Source of the DNA: Escherichia phage PGT2
Length of the DNA stretch: 42,686 nt
Reading direction: 5' to 3' (one strand)
Sequence record: NC_047890.1
Below are positions 1-42,686 of the stretch, in pieces (the stretch's first letter is position 1; every line of letters starts with the position of its first letter). The notes under the pieces were generated by a model. It searched no databases. It was given only the letters and a program-made list of their open reading frames with translations, and was not told the DNA's origin. A program made the translations under genes and the position numbers.

Positions 1-260
1 TCCAACACAAATGAGGTCGCGTTTCCCCCGTAGGCCCGGCCTTCTGGATGGCTAAATGGCTGGATGGATGGATGGCTGGACGGCTAGACGTTTAGACGGC
101 TAAATGGCCAAATGACCGTAAAAAGGGCCGTGGGCACTGATAGGGTCAATCGGGCTGTAAGCCACGCCAACCGGGGTTTCCGCACATTACTTTATAAGAG
201 AGCTTGTAAGGTGTCTGGCGGCGATCCGTCTACGACGGGAGAAGGAAAGAGACGTGGGGT
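1..260. repeat. Left direct terminal repeat (DTR), 260 bp
   Basis: Bases 1-260 are identical to 42427-42686, checked block by block. The repeat runs to the window edge, so 260 bp is a minimum length. Confidence 0.9.
48..118. repeat. Array of short imperfect ~8-bp repeats (CTRRAYGG-like) inside the terminal repeat
   Basis: ggctaaatgg ctggatgg atggatgg ctggacgg ctagacgt ttagacgg ctaaatgg ccaaatga read directly. Resembles the short repeat series in T7 terminal repeats. Confidence 0.6.
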
Positions 261-316
261 ATCTATCTTTTTGGATACGCCTATCTTTTTCTAGTCATCT
301 ATCTTCTTACGATGAG

Positions 317-336
317 CTATCTATCTATCTATCTAT
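317..336. repeat. (CTAT)5 microsatellite flanked by TATCT-TTTTT iterons
   Basis: ctatctatctatctatctat at 317-336; ctatcttttt recurs at about 263-273 and 284-294, just inside the left terminal repeat. Confidence 0.6.
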
Positions 337-383
337 CCAGCTATCCGATTATCTTCGCTTCGACGGATCGGCTATCGCCTTTC

Positions 384-413
384 TTGTCTCCGCTACGATA
401 AGGGAGCTATACT
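384..413 (+). promoter_or_regulatory. Candidate sigma70-type promoter (TTGTCT-18-TATACT)
   Basis: -35 ttgtct at 384-389, -10 tatact at 408-413, 18-bp spacer; lies upstream of the strong RBS of ORF 453. Confidence 0.3.
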
Positions 414-452
414 AAGGATTGTGTTATTGCTCTTTAAGAATGAGGTGAGATT

Positions 453-656
453 ATGGCTATACGTAATTGGGCGGCGGTGCTGGCCATTGTGGATAGTGTG
501 GGGACTGAAGCGGCGTTATCCTTGCCGTATGTTCCGGCTGATGCTAACACTATGCCGGACCGGGCCAAAAGATATGCAATTGAGTACAACATACAACGGG
601 GGAAGTATGGCGAGACCTTGCCGGAAGTACCGACGTCGTGCACTTATCGGGATTGA
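453..656 (+). CDS. Hypothetical early protein (67 aa)
   Basis: ATG at 453 preceded by SD gaggtgag with 7-nt spacing; first ORF after the terminal repeat. Confidence 0.45.
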   Translation: MAIRNWAAVLAIVDSVGTEAALSLPYVPADANTMPDRAKRYAIEYNIQRGKYGETLPEVPTSCTYRD

Positions 657-1047
657 TGTATCCGGGTATCATCCGCCGGCTGTGGTCCGGAACTGGTTAA
701 GGGATACTTTAAGGGATGAATCCAAGGGACTAGCCGATCAGCTTATTTGTAAGCCGTGGGCTGTCTGGTTAGTTTGGGCGCATGATGAGATAGATAGTAA
801 GCGGGTCAGTCTTCTGTGCTGTGTAGGGGAGCGGCAAGCCTTAACTATTATGGATAACGCGGCCCGGCTTGACGGGTATCTGTGCCGGCTGTATCAGTCC
901 GATGGCGATGCGGTCGATATTAGTCATCTGTCCGAGTATAAATCGGTGCATAACTGGACCGGATACTGGAAGCATGTACACGGTGAGGATATGCCGATGA
1001 CGATTAGTGATGACGGATTGAGAAAGCTGCGGGAGATGATAGCATGA
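607..1047 (+). CDS. Hypothetical early protein (146 aa); possibly the C-terminal part of a frameshifted product with ORF 453-656
   Basis: ATG at 607 follows a G5 run (598-602); frame is +1 relative to ORF 453 and overlaps its 3' end; a strong terminator follows the stop. Confidence 0.35.
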   Translation: MARPCRKYRRRALIGIDVSGYHPPAVVRNWLRDTLRDESKGLADQLICKPWAVWLVWAHDEIDSKRVSLLCCVGERQALTIMDNAARLDGYLCRLYQSDGDAVDISHLSEYKSVHNWTGYWKHVHGEDMPMTISDDGLRKLREMIA

Positions 1048-1051
1048 TGAT

Positions 1052-1088
1052 AAGGGGCGGGGAGTGTATCCTTGCCCCTTTCTTTTTG
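1052..1088 (+). terminator. Rho-independent terminator
   Basis: 12-bp stem aaggggcgggga / tccttgcccctt (two G-U pairs), loop gtgta, then tctttttgt. Confidence 0.6.
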
Positions 1089-1217
1089 TATTGTGGATCC
1101 CTGACGTTCTCCTGATCGGGCTTATGCACTCATGGCTGTGCGTTGGCTTGTCTTACGTGTGATTAGGTGTCTGGTGAGAACGTGGGAGATTATTTTCGAT
1201 TATTTTTAAAATATCGC

Positions 1218-1246
1218 TTGCATAGTTCGTGAGGAGGCTATATAGT
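1218..1246 (+). promoter_or_regulatory. Candidate sigma70 early promoter (TTGCAT-17-TATAGT) with AT-rich upstream region
   Basis: -35 ttgcat at 1218-1223, -10 tatagt at 1241-1246, preceded by tatttttaaaatat. Confidence 0.4.
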
Positions 1247-1442
1247 TAATTTCAACGGCGGGGTAGTGGGAAGACAAGCCGATAAAATAGGATTCCCTCC
1301 ACATGGTCAGTTACCATAGGTCATCCGAGACACCAAACGGAATAACTAACAAGTAGTAACACCGGGGCAAGGAGGCCGCCTCGAAAGAGGAAAGTAGCTG
1401 GTAATGGCGTATGAAGCATTACCCCGGTGAGAAAGAAAGAGA

Positions 1443-1471
1443 TTGACAAGTTCAGAAGTAAGCAGTAAGAT
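1443..1471 (+). promoter_or_regulatory. Candidate sigma70 early promoter (TTGACA-17-TAAGAT)
   Basis: Consensus -35 ttgaca at 1443-1448; -10 taagat at 1466-1471; shares the upstream 18-mer aagaaagagattgacaag with the promoter at 1639. Confidence 0.45.
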
Positions 1472-1638
1472 GTAAATCAAGCAGTACGGGAGGAGGCGCA
1501 ACGGAAGGCGCGACACGGCGGGGAGTGATACAAGGACGCGCCAAAGGGAGAACGGATAGGAACTGCGAACCCTTCCGGATACCCGCTACGGATAGCACAG
1601 TTTGCCGGAGTATGCAGACACGGTAAGCAAGAAAGAGA

Positions 1639-1667
1639 TTGACAAGCTGGACAAGTTACCCGATAAT
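1639..1667 (+). promoter_or_regulatory. Candidate sigma70 early promoter (TTGACA-17-GATAAT)
   Basis: Consensus -35 ttgaca at 1639-1644; -10 gataat at 1662-1667; an RBS and small ORF follow. Confidence 0.55.
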
Positions 1668-1698
1668 AAGCTCAACGAATCGCAACGAGGAGAGAGAA

Positions 1699-1857
1699 AT
1701 GACTTACTACGAATCAGCAGAGAACGAGATGATCACCGCAGCACGCGCAGAAAAAGAAGTGCGCCGCCACGGTTGCAGCGTAGCAGAATTTTACGCAGAC
1801 TGCGGTACTCATGAGGAGTACGACGCACAAGCTGTGTTAGAATGGTTAGGGTACTAA
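1699..1857 (+). CDS. Small acidic early protein (52 aa)
   Basis: ATG at 1699 preceded by SD aggagag; lies downstream of the promoter at 1639; 11 acidic versus 4 K/R residues. Confidence 0.45.
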   Translation: MTYYESAENEMITAARAEKEVRRHGCSVAEFYADCGTHEEYDAQAVLEWLGY

Positions 1858-1878
1858 CAGAAAGTTTGAAGAAATAGG

Positions 1879-1907
1879 TTGACAAGTTAAGCAGTAAGCA
1901 GTAACCT
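1879..1907 (+). promoter_or_regulatory. Candidate sigma70 early promoter (TTGACA-17-TAACCT, weak -10)
   Basis: -35 ttgaca at 1879-1884; the spacer carries two AAGCAGTA copies, paralogous to the promoter at 1443. Confidence 0.35.
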
Positions 1908-2122
1908 AGAAAGCAAGCAGTACAGCAGTATCACAGCAGCCTAGAATAGGTTGAGTCGCACTCGGTGTGAATAGCTGACCTGACAGCGATATGGTTCAGG
2001 GGGGCCGGAGGATAGACAGTGACGTCGCCAATAAGCCCAACAAACGAAAGGTTTGTTAGTGTATCCTCACAGTAGGGTACAGCAACAAACTAACCGTAAA
2101 CGCAACGTAAACGAGGCGCACC

Positions 2123-2362
2123 ATGACTACACGTACAGAATACAACGGACACAAAAACAAAACTCACTGGAATGTAAGCCTTTGGATTAATAACGATGAG
2201 GCACTTTACCAGTTGGCAAGAGAATTTATCAACGATAACAATAACCGTAATGATGCGGCCCGCGCTATGGCGTTATTTTTAGCACAGTTGGGACAAGATA
2301 AAACGCCGGACGGATTCAAATACAGCGCTACGGCGATCCGCGCCGCTATGGTTGAGATGTAA
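2123..2362 (+). CDS. Hypothetical early protein (79 aa)
   Basis: ATG with SD acgagg at 6-nt spacing; first of a run of tightly packed same-strand early ORFs. Confidence 0.55.
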   Translation: MTTRTEYNGHKNKTHWNVSLWINNDEALYQLAREFINDNNNRNDAARAMALFLAQLGQDKTPDGFKYSATAIRAAMVEM

Positions 2363-2373
2363 GGAGGCACAGC

Positions 2374-2640
2374 ATGAAACTTTCAAAACAGACCGCGACC
2401 GATATTAGAAGCGCACTCATTGGCAAGGACGTGCCAGCTATCGCAAAGGCTTATCAGGAAAAAGGTTTATCATTCACTCGCTTCATATGGGACGCGTATC
2501 ACTCTATCGGCCACGCTAAGACCAACGAGATACTGACAGCTAACAACAAGCTGACAGTTATTGGTGGCTATGTAACCGATATTAATGACAGCCATATTGA
2601 AACAATGCTAAAACTAGCGTTCAAAGATTGTAAGTTTTAA
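2374..2640 (+). CDS. Hypothetical early protein (88 aa)
   Basis: ATG preceded by strong SD aaggagg. Confidence 0.6.
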   Translation: MKLSKQTATDIRSALIGKDVPAIAKAYQEKGLSFTRFIWDAYHSIGHAKTNEILTANNKLTVIGGYVTDINDSHIETMLKLAFKDCKF

Positions 2641-2682
2641 GATAGCGGCATACAAATAAACGCAACGTAAATGAGGCGCACC

Positions 2683-3177
2683 ATGAAAGTATTAATTTCT
2701 GCATTCCGTAAAGAAAACGATCTGTTAACCCATATCAATAATCACGCGGAATTATTCGACCGCATCACCGCATTAGGATTGACGCCGCAGCCCGTCGATG
2801 GCGTGTGGAAAGGTGTATCGGAGTTTTCTTACATGGTACACGGTGTTACCACAGCGATGCTCAAAGCGTTTTATGCAATGGCCCGCGACTACAATCAGGA
2901 GGCTATCTTGCTTGTTGCTGATGATAACCGTGCCGCAGTAGTGCCCACCGATGGCCCGGTGATGGCCCCGATGATTGACGTTGGCGACTGGAGGGAAGTA
3001 AGCAAAGAGATCGCGATACAATTTGACGGATACACCAAGACACGCGACGGCCGCTATTTTGTCGCCGCCACTCGTGAGCAGTTCGGCCTCGCCACTCGTC
3101 GGCTGTTAGCCACACAGATGGGCGTAATCGCTGCTAACGAATATGCAGCACGTGTAAACGCAGTGGGAGGATTATAA
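2683..3177 (+). CDS. Hypothetical early protein (164 aa)
   Basis: Start at the second ATG (2683), chosen because the 28-nt block before it is 27/28 identical to the leader of ORF 2123; the provided ORF track begins at the in-frame ATG at 2671. Confidence 0.55.
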   Translation: MKVLISAFRKENDLLTHINNHAELFDRITALGLTPQPVDGVWKGVSEFSYMVHGVTTAMLKAFYAMARDYNQEAILLVADDNRAAVVPTDGPVMAPMIDVGDWREVSKEIAIQFDGYTKTRDGRYFVAATREQFGLATRRLLATQMGVIAANEYAARVNAVGGL

Positions 3178-42426: not shown

Positions 42427-42686
42427 TCCAACACAAATGAGGTCGCGTTTCCCCCGTAGGCCCGGCCTTCTGGATGGCTAAATGGCTGGATGGATGGATG
42501 GCTGGACGGCTAGACGTTTAGACGGCTAAATGGCCAAATGACCGTAAAAAGGGCCGTGGGCACTGATAGGGTCAATCGGGCTGTAAGCCACGCCAACCGG
42601 GGTTTCCGCACATTACTTTATAAGAGAGCTTGTAAGGTGTCTGGCGGCGATCCGTCTACGACGGGAGAAGGAAAGAGACGTGGGGT
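42427..42686. repeat. Right direct terminal repeat (DTR), 260 bp
   Basis: Exact copy of 1-260. Confidence 0.9.

What the first reader, a model, noticed from the sequence alone, without database searches (positions are those of the whole stretch)
384..1088. Self-contained leftmost transcription unit with two overlapping ORFs joined at a G5 run
A candidate promoter (384-413), a strong RBS, ORF 453-656, an overlapping +1-frame ORF 607-1047, and a 12-bp-stem terminator (1052-1088) together form a discrete unit ahead of the main early promoter cluster. The two ORFs meet at a GGGGG run (598-602), a typical site for polymerase slippage or a sequencing indel, so they may encode one protein of about 200 aa. 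As the first expressed gene, it is a candidate host-takeover or anti-defense function.
Basis: partly seen in the sequence, partly recalled or inferred. Interest (0 to 1): 0.5.

Follow-up and report, generated by a model that had tools for sequence, protein, structure and literature searches.

The report
Two-gene early phage operon, not fusion
The leftmost unit of coliphage PGT2 is a real, conserved promoter-to-terminator operon, but its two overlapping reading frames are separate genes: the GGGGG run is the ribosome-binding site of the second, better-conserved gene, which GenBank leaves unannotated, and not a frameshift or sequencing error.

Summary
The window is the complete genome of Escherichia phage PGT2 (42,686 bp, 260-bp terminal repeats). 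The unit recurs in phiKT and in about 20 metagenomic relatives.

- All 18 ORF1 variants found are 67 aa.
- All ORF2 homologues start at a conserved M(A/G)RP.
- No fused protein turned up in searches of 5.8 billion clusters (word-indexed) and 1.84 billion representatives (exhaustive profile search).
- No indel occurs at the G run in 8 lineages read as DNA.
- Three relatives (L002, L017, L018) lack ORF1 and join the same leader and ribosome-binding site directly to ORF2.
- One relative (L016) has an unrelated upstream ORF whose stop lies 1 nt before ORF2's ATG.

The G5 run sits at -9 to -5 from ORF2's ATG. That is exactly where L017 has GGAGG, and it pairs with the anti-Shine-Dalgarno at -8.6 kcal/mol.

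Selection runs in each ORF's own frame: pN/pS is 0.39 for the unique part of ORF1 and 0.11 for ORF2. The overlap is constrained only in ORF2's frame.

ORF2 appears to be unannotated in both the PGT2 and phiKT records. It belongs to an orphan family of about 10 clusters. Its function is unknown. A medium-confidence AlphaFold model weakly resembles sigma-region-4/LuxR helix-turn-helix domains. The gene organisation is ordinary, and the position at the genome's left end is mildly interesting.

The parts
1..260 (.). Left direct terminal repeat (context only). The unit begins 124 nt after it.
   Evidence: Bases 1-260 are identical to 42427-42686. This matches the published PGT2 genome: TR 260 bp, total 42,686 bp (PMC5773715).
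384..413 (+). Sigma-70-type promoter candidate, TTGTCT-18-TATACT. The inferred transcription start is near 420.
   Evidence: It scores 9/12 in the scan. The -35 is invariant and the -10 is kept as TAnnnT, with a 16-18 nt spacer, in 5 lineages. Equivalent sites exist in L018 (10/12) and L002. Activity was not measured.
425..448 (+). Conserved mRNA leader TATTGCTCTTTAA... ending in the Shine-Dalgarno GAGGTGA (442-448) of ORF1.
   Evidence: The leader is conserved in all lineages. In L002 and L018 it feeds directly into ORF2. The anti-SD duplex is -6.9 kcal/mol.
453..656 (+). ORF1, 67 aa (7.4 kDa, pI 5.2), annotated as PGT2_g00001. It is an accessory small upstream gene. Only codons 1-50 are constrained as protein.
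   Evidence: All 18 variants are 67 aa. pN/pS is 0.39 in its own frame against 1.04 and 1.12 in the other two. A 92-aa homologue exists in the distant L015. ORF1 is absent from L002, L017 and L018.
598..602 (+). GGGGG run. It is the Shine-Dalgarno element of ORF2, embedded in ORF1 codons CGG-GGG (Arg49-Gly50).
   Evidence: It occupies -9 to -5 from ATG 607, the same position as GGAGG in the ORF1-less L017. The anti-SD duplex is -8.6 kcal/mol. CAACGGGGG is invariant at its synonymous sites in 8 lineages, including L015. No indels were seen.
607..1047 (+). ORF2, 146 aa (16.9 kDa; the N-terminal 20 aa have pI 11.4). This is the conserved core gene of the unit, in an orphan family, and appears unannotated in the PGT2 and phiKT records.
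   Evidence: pN/pS is 0.11. The M(A/G)RPxxxYxRR N-terminus is conserved in 12 of the 13 aligned homologues; P0024 lacks that segment. The exact sequence is not in the protein collection, and phiKT has no CDS at this place. The family comprises about 10 clusters.
452..457 (+). TATGGC, the first copy of a short direct repeat that brackets the body of ORF1.
   Evidence: Read from the sequence. Deleting the DNA between the two copies (452-457 and 606-611) would reproduce the L002/L018 arrangement of leader, ribosome-binding site and ATGGC...ORF2. This is an inference.
606..611 (+). TATGGC, the second copy of the direct repeat. It includes ORF2's ATG.
   Evidence: Read from the sequence.
1052..1088 (+). 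Intrinsic terminator: 12-pair stem at 1052-1080 followed by a T-rich tail.
   Evidence: Found by the scan. The fold is -25 kcal/mol with z = -4.82. The position is conserved while the stem sequences differ in L003/L006/L008, L002 and L018. No terminator was detected after ORF2 in L015, L016 or L017.

Best explanation
The region is a small bicistronic early operon of phage PGT2. It is transcribed by host RNA polymerase from a sigma-70-type promoter (384-413) and closed by an intrinsic terminator (1052-1088).

It encodes two separately initiated proteins:
- ORF1 (453-656, 67 aa) starts behind the leader's GAGGTGA.
- ORF2 (607-1047, 146 aa) starts at its own conserved ATG.

The GGGGG run inside ORF1 serves as ORF2's Shine-Dalgarno sequence, so it is neither a slippery site nor a sequencing error.

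ORF2 is the ancestral core gene of the unit. ORF1 is an optional upstream cassette whose last 16 codons merely ride over ORF2's start. Ribosomes translating ORF1 pass over ORF2's initiation site, so ORF1 probably also tunes ORF2's output. That last step is an inference.

The function of ORF2 is not established. My best guess, at low confidence, is a nucleic-acid- or RNA-polymerase-binding early protein: a strongly basic N-terminal arm (MARPCRKYRRR) followed by a helical core that resembles a sigma-region-4/LuxR helix-turn-helix. It would be made from the first DNA to enter the cell.
For: **Shown**
1. Two ORFs with the same geometry (67 aa; 146-149 aa; 50-nt overlap; +1 frame) occur in 7 distinct lineages read as DNA. 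A 92-aa/149-aa version occurs in the distant L015.
2. All 18 ORF1 protein variants are 67 aa and keep QRG-x-YG, that is, TAT-GG spanning ORF2's ATG.
3. ORF2 stands alone directly behind the homologous leader and ribosome-binding site in L002 and L018, and behind a canonical TAGGAGGTTATATG in L017. In L018 the ORF2 frame is open for only 3 nt (one codon) upstream of the ATG before a stop.
4. In L016 an unrelated 54-aa upstream ORF (hhalign probability 0.3%) ends TAG-G-ATG just before ORF2.
5. G5 pairs with the anti-SD at -8.6 kcal/mol, more strongly than ORF1's own SD at -6.9. It occupies -9 to -5, as GGAGG does in L017.
6. pN/pS values: ORF1 unique part 0.39 in frame against 1.04 and 1.12 off frame; overlap 0.21 in ORF2's frame against 2.90 in ORF1's frame; ORF2 body 0.11.
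7. There is no stable RNA structure downstream of the run (z = +1.47).
8. No fused homologue exists: every hit to a 197-aa fusion query covers only the ORF2 part, and the profile searches agree.
9. The promoter and terminator are conserved, as detailed in the observation check.

**For the function guess**
- The AlphaFold2 model built from 13 sequences has mean pLDDT 72, above 80 for residues 10-100.
- They recur again among the non-significant Foldseek hits.
Against: - No expression data exist, so promoter, terminator and both start sites are computational calls.
- The lack of constraint on ORF1's tail is also what a frameshift model would predict, so a minor fused product cannot be formally excluded.
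- The SD-to-ATG spacing is short (4 nt after the last G).
- The coding evidence for ORF1 is moderate. Variable columns by codon position are 17/11/25, which is only a marginal departure from uniform by my own rough estimate.
- ORF1's pS (0.28) is about half of ORF2's (0.54), which hints at an extra nucleotide-level constraint that I have not explained.
Confidence: 0.8

Rival explanations
1. Programmed +1 ribosomal frameshifting, or transcriptional slippage, at CGG-GGG-AAG joins ORF1 codons 1-50 to ORF2. This would yield a 197-aa (22.4 kDa) fusion, possibly alongside the separate products.
For: ORF2 is in the +1 frame. The G run is invariant even at synonymous sites in 8 lineages, including the distant L015. 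ORF1's post-run tail is unconstrained (pN/pS 2.9). From my own knowledge, GGGGG-UAU superficially recalls the SD-like stimulator AGGGGGUAU of the prfB frameshift site.
Against: - There is no slippery P-site codon and no stop or rare A-site codon after the run. The next codon varies (AAG, AAC, GAC, GTA) and is followed by UAU-GGN.
- There is no downstream stimulatory structure.
- The run is only 5-6 nt, well below the lengths generally associated with RNA-polymerase slippage (own knowledge).
- ORF2's ATG and SD are conserved.
- ORF2 is a stand-alone gene in L002, L017 and L018. It is separated by a stop from an unrelated upstream ORF in L016.
- No fused homologue was found in any search.
Confidence: 0.05
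2. The two frames are an artefact. A 454 homopolymer miscall at 598-602 split one real gene in the PGT2 assembly.
For: PGT2 was sequenced on a Roche 454 Junior, a platform prone to homopolymer-length errors (own knowledge).
Against: The same frame arrangement, with no indel, appears in phiKT and in independent metagenome assemblies from several unrelated samples: L003-L012 and L015. All 18 ORF1 proteins are 67 aa.
Confidence: 0.01
3. ORF1 is not a functional protein. It is a regulatory upstream ORF or leader whose translation only sets the level of ORF2, by occluding or unmasking ORF2's start or by coupling.
For: - ORF1 is dispensable in three lineages (L002, L017, L018).
- An unrelated upstream ORF occupies the same slot in L016, with stop-start coupling and a very weak SD (-1.8 kcal/mol) for ORF2.
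- ORF1's tail is unconstrained.
- ORF1 has no homologues outside this slot.
Against: The first 50 codons show purifying selection in frame only (0.39 against about 1.1). The motifs DSVG-E and E-x-x-IQRG survive in L015 at 38% identity. ORF1's length is invariant in 18 variants. A purely regulatory upstream ORF would not need a conserved peptide, although the two roles are not exclusive.
Confidence: 0.14

Closest known systems
Class I (early) region of T7/T3-type phages: host-RNAP promoters A1-A3 followed by gene 0.3 (Ocr in T7, SAM lyase in T3)
   Same: Sigma-70-driven genes sit at the genome's left end just inside the terminal repeat. PGT2 also has strong consensus promoters (1443, 1639) followed by an S-AdoMet-lyase homologue (2671-3177; PF23780 on the orthologues).
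   Different: The ORF1/ORF2 unit lies upstream of that promoter cluster. It has its own weak promoter and its own terminator, and shows no sequence similarity to Ocr, SAM lyase or any Pfam or PHROG family. To my knowledge T7 has no protein-coding gene in the equivalent position; this was not tested here.
Overlapping or translationally coupled bacterial and phage cistrons in which the downstream gene's Shine-Dalgarno lies inside the upstream gene
   Same: The SD (GGGGG) and the ATG of ORF2 lie within ORF1's coding sequence. Both ORFs are under selection in their own frames, and the overlap is constrained by one frame only.
   Different: The overlap is long (50 nt) rather than the usual 1-4 nt. 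The upstream gene is an optional cassette, present or absent among close relatives.
prfB (RF2) programmed +1 frameshift site, AGG GGG UAU CUU UGA C
   Same: A G-rich SD-like run inside an ORF is followed by UAU, and the second ORF is in the +1 frame.
   Different: There is no CUU-U slippery codon and no in-frame stop at the shift position. The downstream ORF has its own conserved ATG and exists alone in relatives.
Sigma-factor region 4 / LuxR-type helix-turn-helix domains, and from memory Hin-type 'GRPR arm + HTH' DNA-binding domains
   Different: All structural scores are below significance. No HTH profile matches at E <= 1. This is a lead, not evidence of membership.

Membership tests
Programmed +1 ribosomal frameshift (prfB-type) | Slippery P-site codon that can re-pair in the +1 frame | tested here: not met
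   After GGGGG the 0-frame codons are AAG/AAC/GAC/GTA and then UAU-GGN. None allows good +1 re-pairing, judged by reading the sequence against established codon-anticodon rules.
Programmed +1 ribosomal frameshift (prfB-type) | Stop or hungry codon in the A site at the shift position | tested here: not met
   There is no stop codon. ORF1's frame runs on for 17 more codons to TGA at 654-656.
Programmed +1 ribosomal frameshift (prfB-type) | The trans-frame product is the conserved entity, and the downstream ORF lacks an independent start | tested here: not met
   ORF2 has a conserved ATG and SD. It is a stand-alone gene in L002, L017 and L018. No fused homologue was found.
Transcriptional slippage / homopolymer phase variation | Long homopolymer with length polymorphism among isolates | tested here: not met
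   The run is 5 G in six lineages and 6 G in two, and the change is by substitution. The frames are unchanged in all 8 lineages.
Sequencing homopolymer artefact | The frame break is absent from independent assemblies | tested here: not met
   phiKT and independent metagenome assemblies from several samples show the same two frames.
Separately initiated overlapping cistrons (internal SD) | Anti-SD-complementary motif 4-9 nt upstream of a conserved start codon | tested here: met
   GGGGG lies at -9 to -5 with a duplex of -8.6 kcal/mol. The ATG is invariant in 12 lineages. GGAGG occupies the same position in L017.
Separately initiated overlapping cistrons (internal SD) | Each ORF under purifying selection in its own frame | tested here: met
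   pN/pS is 0.39 for the unique part of ORF1 and 0.11 for ORF2. Off-frame values are at or above about 1 (1.04-3.6).
Separately initiated overlapping cistrons (internal SD) | Both proteins actually made from their own starts | not testable with these tools
   This needs start-site ribosome profiling, N-terminal proteomics or tagged constructs.
Sigma-70 promoter plus intrinsic terminator transcription unit | -35 and -10 hexamers with 16-18 nt spacing, conserved among relatives | tested here: met
   The hexamer score alone (9/12) is at chance level, so conservation carries the argument.
Sigma-70 promoter plus intrinsic terminator transcription unit | GC-rich hairpin followed by a U tract immediately after the last stop codon | tested here: met
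   (z = -4.8). Equivalent hairpins occur in L002 and L018. None was detected in L015, L016 or L017.
Sigma-70 promoter plus intrinsic terminator transcription unit | Transcript with the predicted 5' and 3' ends early in infection | not testable with these tools
   No transcriptome for PGT2 or phiKT was found. One full-text search on phiKT returned nothing about this region.
Sigma region 4 / LuxR-type HTH fold (ORF2) | Significant structural match to an HTH domain | tested here: inconclusive
Sigma region 4 / LuxR-type HTH fold (ORF2) | Match to a Pfam HTH or sigma profile | tested here: not met
   No Pfam family reached E <= 1 for ORF2 or for any of 13 family members, apart from one DUF2020 hit at E = 0.23.
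Known anti-defence or defence-associated proteins | Sequence match to a catalogued family | tested here: not met
   PADLOC found nothing for the window's ORF1 and ORF2. One weak AbiEi hit (E = 0.008) was found for P0022 only. PHROGs found nothing. No dedicated anti-defence library was available.

The most novel reading that the evidence does not exclude
ORF2 founds a family of 'pre-early' effectors specific to phiKT-like podophages. It would be a basic-arm plus sigma-4-like protein, made from the first ~1.1 kb of DNA to enter the cell, before the main early promoters at 1443-1880 are available. It would bind host RNA polymerase or DNA to redirect transcription, protect the entering genome, or start transcription-driven genome entry. 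The optional ORF1 cassette would be its modulator or partner.
Probability: 0.12. Interest if true: 0.6.

Novelty: new member of a known kind. Interest (0 to 1): 0.28.

Why it matters
**Practical.** The larger and far better conserved gene of this unit (ORF2, pN/pS 0.11) appears to be missing from the PGT2 and phiKT protein sets, while the small accessory ORF1 is annotated. The records need correcting, and the apparent frameshift should not be propagated as a pseudogene or a recoding event.

**Biological.** In T7-type phages the left end enters the cell first. A self-contained host-transcribed unit placed before the classical early promoters has, to my knowledge, no counterpart in T7. Its product is therefore a reasonable candidate for a very early host-directed function. 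The presence or absence of ORF1, bracketed by TATGGC repeats, is a tidy small example of how an upstream cistron can be gained or lost without disturbing the downstream gene's translation signals.

Tried and rejected
1. **Fusion query.** A 197-aa hypothetical fusion searched against 5.8 billion protein clusters gave hits to the ORF2 part only.
2. **Family and structure-sequence libraries.** Pfam, PHROGs, PADLOC and PDB sequence searches on ORF1, ORF2, the fusion and family members gave nothing usable.
3. **First AlphaFold run.** With 6 close sequences the model was too poor to use (pLDDT 50.7). It was repeated with 13 sequences.
5. **Metagenome DNA scan.** The junction pattern TACAAYRTWCAACGGGG, used as a proxy for homopolymer-length variation, hit only chance matches. 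None of the loci from L019 onward encodes ORF1 or ORF2.
6. **IMG/VR scan with the ORF2 profile.** It returned only PGT2 itself and phiKT.
7. **tblastn against GenBank phages.** Using ORF1, ORF2 and the distant homologues P0023 and P0025 against 50,697 records, only phiKT matched.
8. **Homology of the L016 upstream ORF to ORF1.** Rejected (hhalign probability 0.3%).
9. **The 208-aa GTG-421 extension of ORF2's frame.** Rejected. That frame has pN/pS of about 1.04 upstream of 607, and relatives carry stops there.
10. **Rfam on 1-3000.** No match.
11. **A frameshift-stimulating structure after the run.** None found.
Full report
**Identity of the window.** The window carries 260-bp direct terminal repeats: bases 1-260 equal 42427-42686. 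Its nearest GenBank relative is Escherichia phage phiKT (Autographiviridae, Ermolevavirus), at 89% identity over this region. Its length (42,686 bp) and repeat length (260 bp) match exactly the published genome of Escherichia phage PGT2, MG201401, which was sequenced on a Roche 454 Junior (PMC5773715). ORF1's product is in public databases as 'hypothetical protein PGT2_g00001', and IMG/VR holds the same 42,686-bp contig. The finding therefore lies 124 nt inside the left end of a T7-like genome.

**Check of the observation.**
- ORF1 is 453-656 (67 aa). ORF2 is 607-1047 (146 aa), in the +1 frame, with a 50-nt overlap. The G run is 598-602.
- The promoter-like site TTGTCT-18-TATACT (384-413) scores only 9/12. 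That is unremarkable, since 7 sites were found against 4.1 expected by chance.
- Conservation supports the promoter. The -35 is invariant and the -10 remains TAnnnT through substitutions (TATACT, TATAAT, TATAGT, TATACT, TACAAT), with spacers of 16-18 nt in five lineages. Equivalent sites precede the gene in L018 (TTGATA-16-TATACT) and L002.
- The terminator is strong: 12 pairs, -25 kcal/mol, z = -4.8.
- Different hairpins with U tracts take its place in L002 (-33.7 kcal/mol, z = -4.75) and L018. This is the pattern expected of a conserved function rather than a conserved sequence.
- The strongest consensus promoters lie downstream at 1443 and 1639.

**Relatives.**
- A 197-aa hypothetical fusion, used as query against 5.8 billion protein clusters, returned four proteins that all cover only the ORF2 part.
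- ORF1 alone returned 17 clusters, every one of them 67 aa.
- A profile search of 1.84 billion representatives, plus a second profile search, added distant ORF2 homologues at 34-54% identity: P0022, P0023, P0024, P0025 and P0027.
- I read their contigs. All sit in the same genomic slot, after terminase, endolysin, disruptin and holin and the genome end, and before an S-AdoMet-lyase gene.
- Among 50,697 GenBank phage records only phiKT carries the gene.

**One protein or two?** Five lines of evidence point to two.

1. *Geometry is conserved without indels.* Seven PGT2-clade lineages read as DNA have a 67-aa ORF1, an ORF2 of 146-149 aa, a 50-nt overlap and the +1 frame. The G run is 5 G in five of them and 6 G in L008 and L009, where the extra G arose by substitution. 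The much more distant L015 (ORF2 39% identical) has a 92-aa ORF1 homologue and the identical junction CAACGGGGGAACTATGGC. Independent assemblies from several samples exclude a 454 homopolymer error.

2. *ORF2 exists without ORF1.* In L002 and L018 the homologous promoter and leader (…ATTGCTCTTTAA…GAGGTG…) run straight into ATGG(G/C)TAGACCT, which encodes M(G/A)RP, the start of ORF2. In L018 the ORF2 frame is open for only 3 nt (one codon) upstream of that ATG before a stop. L017 has no upstream ORF and a canonical TAGGAGGTTATATG. In L016 an unrelated 54-aa ORF (hhalign probability 0.3%) ends TAG-G-ATG just before ORF2, whose own SD is negligible at -1.8 kcal/mol. That is classic stop-start coupling.

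3. *The G run is a Shine-Dalgarno sequence.* It occupies -9 to -5 from ATG 607, exactly where L017 has GGAGG. It pairs with the 16S 3' end at -8.6 kcal/mol, more strongly than ORF1's own SD at -6.9. Its invariance at the synonymous third positions of CGG and GGG in 8 lineages shows selection on the nucleotides themselves. The SD role explains this.

4. *Selection acts in separate frames.* In the unique part of ORF1, pN/pS is 0.39 in ORF1's frame against 1.04 and 1.12 in the other two. In the overlap it is 0.21 in ORF2's frame against 2.90 in ORF1's frame. In ORF2's body it is 0.11. So ORF1's first 50 codons look coding, its last 16 are passengers, and nothing upstream of 607 is coding in ORF2's frame. 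This also rules out the 208-aa GTG-421 reading.

5. *Recoding signals are absent.* There is no slippery codon and no stop or rare A-site codon, and the codon after the run varies (AAG, AAC, GAC, GTA). The downstream RNA is less structured than shuffled controls (z = +1.47). Five or six G is well short of the tract lengths I associate with RNA-polymerase slippage (own knowledge).

The unconstrained ORF1 tail would also fit a frameshift model, so a trace of fused product cannot be excluded. I put that at about 5%.

**Origin of ORF1.** The body of ORF1 is bracketed by the direct repeat TATGGC (452-457 and 606-611). Deleting the DNA between the copies would yield precisely the L002/L018 arrangement. 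ORF1's first codons (ATG GCT ATA CGT) also resemble ORF2's (ATG GCG AGA CCT). ORF1 is present in the PGT2 clade and in the distant L015, yet absent from the intermediate L002 and L018. This implies repeated loss or exchange. These points are inference. ORF1 and ORF2 share an atypical composition: G-ending codons make up 0.42 and 0.38 against 0.28 in 15 long reference genes, and rare codons 0.15 and 0.18 against 0.07. GC skew across the unit is +0.24 to +0.28. That probably explains why gene callers miss ORF2.

**Annotation status.** ORF2's exact sequence, for both PGT2 and phiKT, is absent from the 15-billion-protein collection that does contain PGT2_g00001. The phiKT record has no CDS at this place, only a BPROM 'P3 late promoter' at ORF2's 3' end. 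So the reference records appear to annotate the accessory ORF, or nothing, and to miss the conserved gene.

**What ORF2 might do.**
- There are no sequence-family matches.
- The family is tiny, at about 10 clusters.
- Invariant features are an N-terminal M(A/G)RPxxxYxRR arm (pI 11.4 for the first 20 residues) and a core V(W/L)xVWxH(D/E)xIxxxRVxL(L/V)CxxGxRQAxxxMxYAxxxD.
- AlphaFold2 with 13 sequences gives pLDDT 72 overall and 80-91 for residues 10-100. The core is helical, with helices at 50-57, 64-71 and 75-97.
- Foldseek's non-significant top hits are again sigma-A chains and LuxR or MarR regulators. The best BFVD hits are uncharacterised Pseudomonas phage proteins (E ~ 0.015).

I read this as a weak lead towards a protein that binds DNA or RNA polymerase, with about 30% confidence, and nothing more.

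**Position.** From my knowledge of T7, roughly the first 850 bp enter the cell without transcription, and host RNA polymerase then pulls in more DNA. By analogy, this unit would be the first expressible DNA, and it lies ahead of the strong promoters. That fits a very early host-directed role, or possibly a role in priming entry. Neither was tested.

**Verdict.** What remains is an ordinary overlapping two-cistron early operon that encodes an orphan, unannotated protein family in a notable position.

Noticed in passing
window 1360-1430 (also L008 3598-3668 and L002 1423-1493): A conserved structured RNA candidate lies between the ORF1/ORF2 terminator and the strong early promoter at 1443. It has an outer stem CACCGGGG/CCCCGGUG enclosing a GAAA-tetraloop hairpin and a second hairpin. 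MFE is -28.6 kcal/mol with z = -3.07. Of 22 pairs, 4 show compensatory changes among 3 copies. Rfam gives no match. It might be an RNase III-type processing site or another leader element.
   Followed up: partly
window 2671-3177: This 168-aa ORF is the homologue of genes that carry the Pfam S-AdoMet_lyase domain (PF23780) in L002, L009, L017 and L018. Its phiKT orthologue is annotated as 'phage tail tape measure protein', which looks like a misannotation of a T3-type anti-restriction SAM lyase.
   Followed up: partly
window 607-1047; phiKT JN882298 38433-38873: ORF2 appears to be missing from the protein sets of both reference genomes, PGT2 and phiKT, although it is the most strongly constrained gene in this unit.
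   Followed up: yes
window 40-110 and 300-380: Short repeat arrays flank the end of the terminal repeat: GGATGG/CTAAATGG-type units inside the repeat, and CTAT tetranucleotide runs plus three GCTATC copies just upstream of the -35 of the ORF1 promoter. The CTAT and GCTATC arrays are conserved in relatives. They may be packaging or concatemer-processing repeats, as at T7 genome ends, or possibly operator-like sites.
   Followed up: no
window 401-1200: The unit has an unusual strand composition: GC skew of +0.24 to +0.28, T exceeding A, G-ending codons at about 0.40, and twice the rare-codon fraction of the long reference genes. The downstream early genes are A-rich instead. ORF1's synonymous divergence (pS 0.28) is about half of ORF2's (0.54), and I have no explanation for that.
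   Followed up: partly
L016 1347-1515: In one distant relative ORF2 is preceded by an unrelated 54-aa ORF that ends TAG-G-ATG, and ORF2 has almost no SD (-1.8 kcal/mol). This suggests termination-reinitiation coupling. The 'upstream ORF slot' therefore seems to recur with different occupants.
   Followed up: partly
window 1218-1250 and 1879-1910: Further sigma-70-like promoters that the scan did not report are visible by eye, for example TTGCAT…TATATA near 1218 and GGTTGACAAGTT near 1879. The motif AAGAGATTGACAAG recurs at 1436 and 1632, which suggests duplicated early promoter modules.
   Followed up: no
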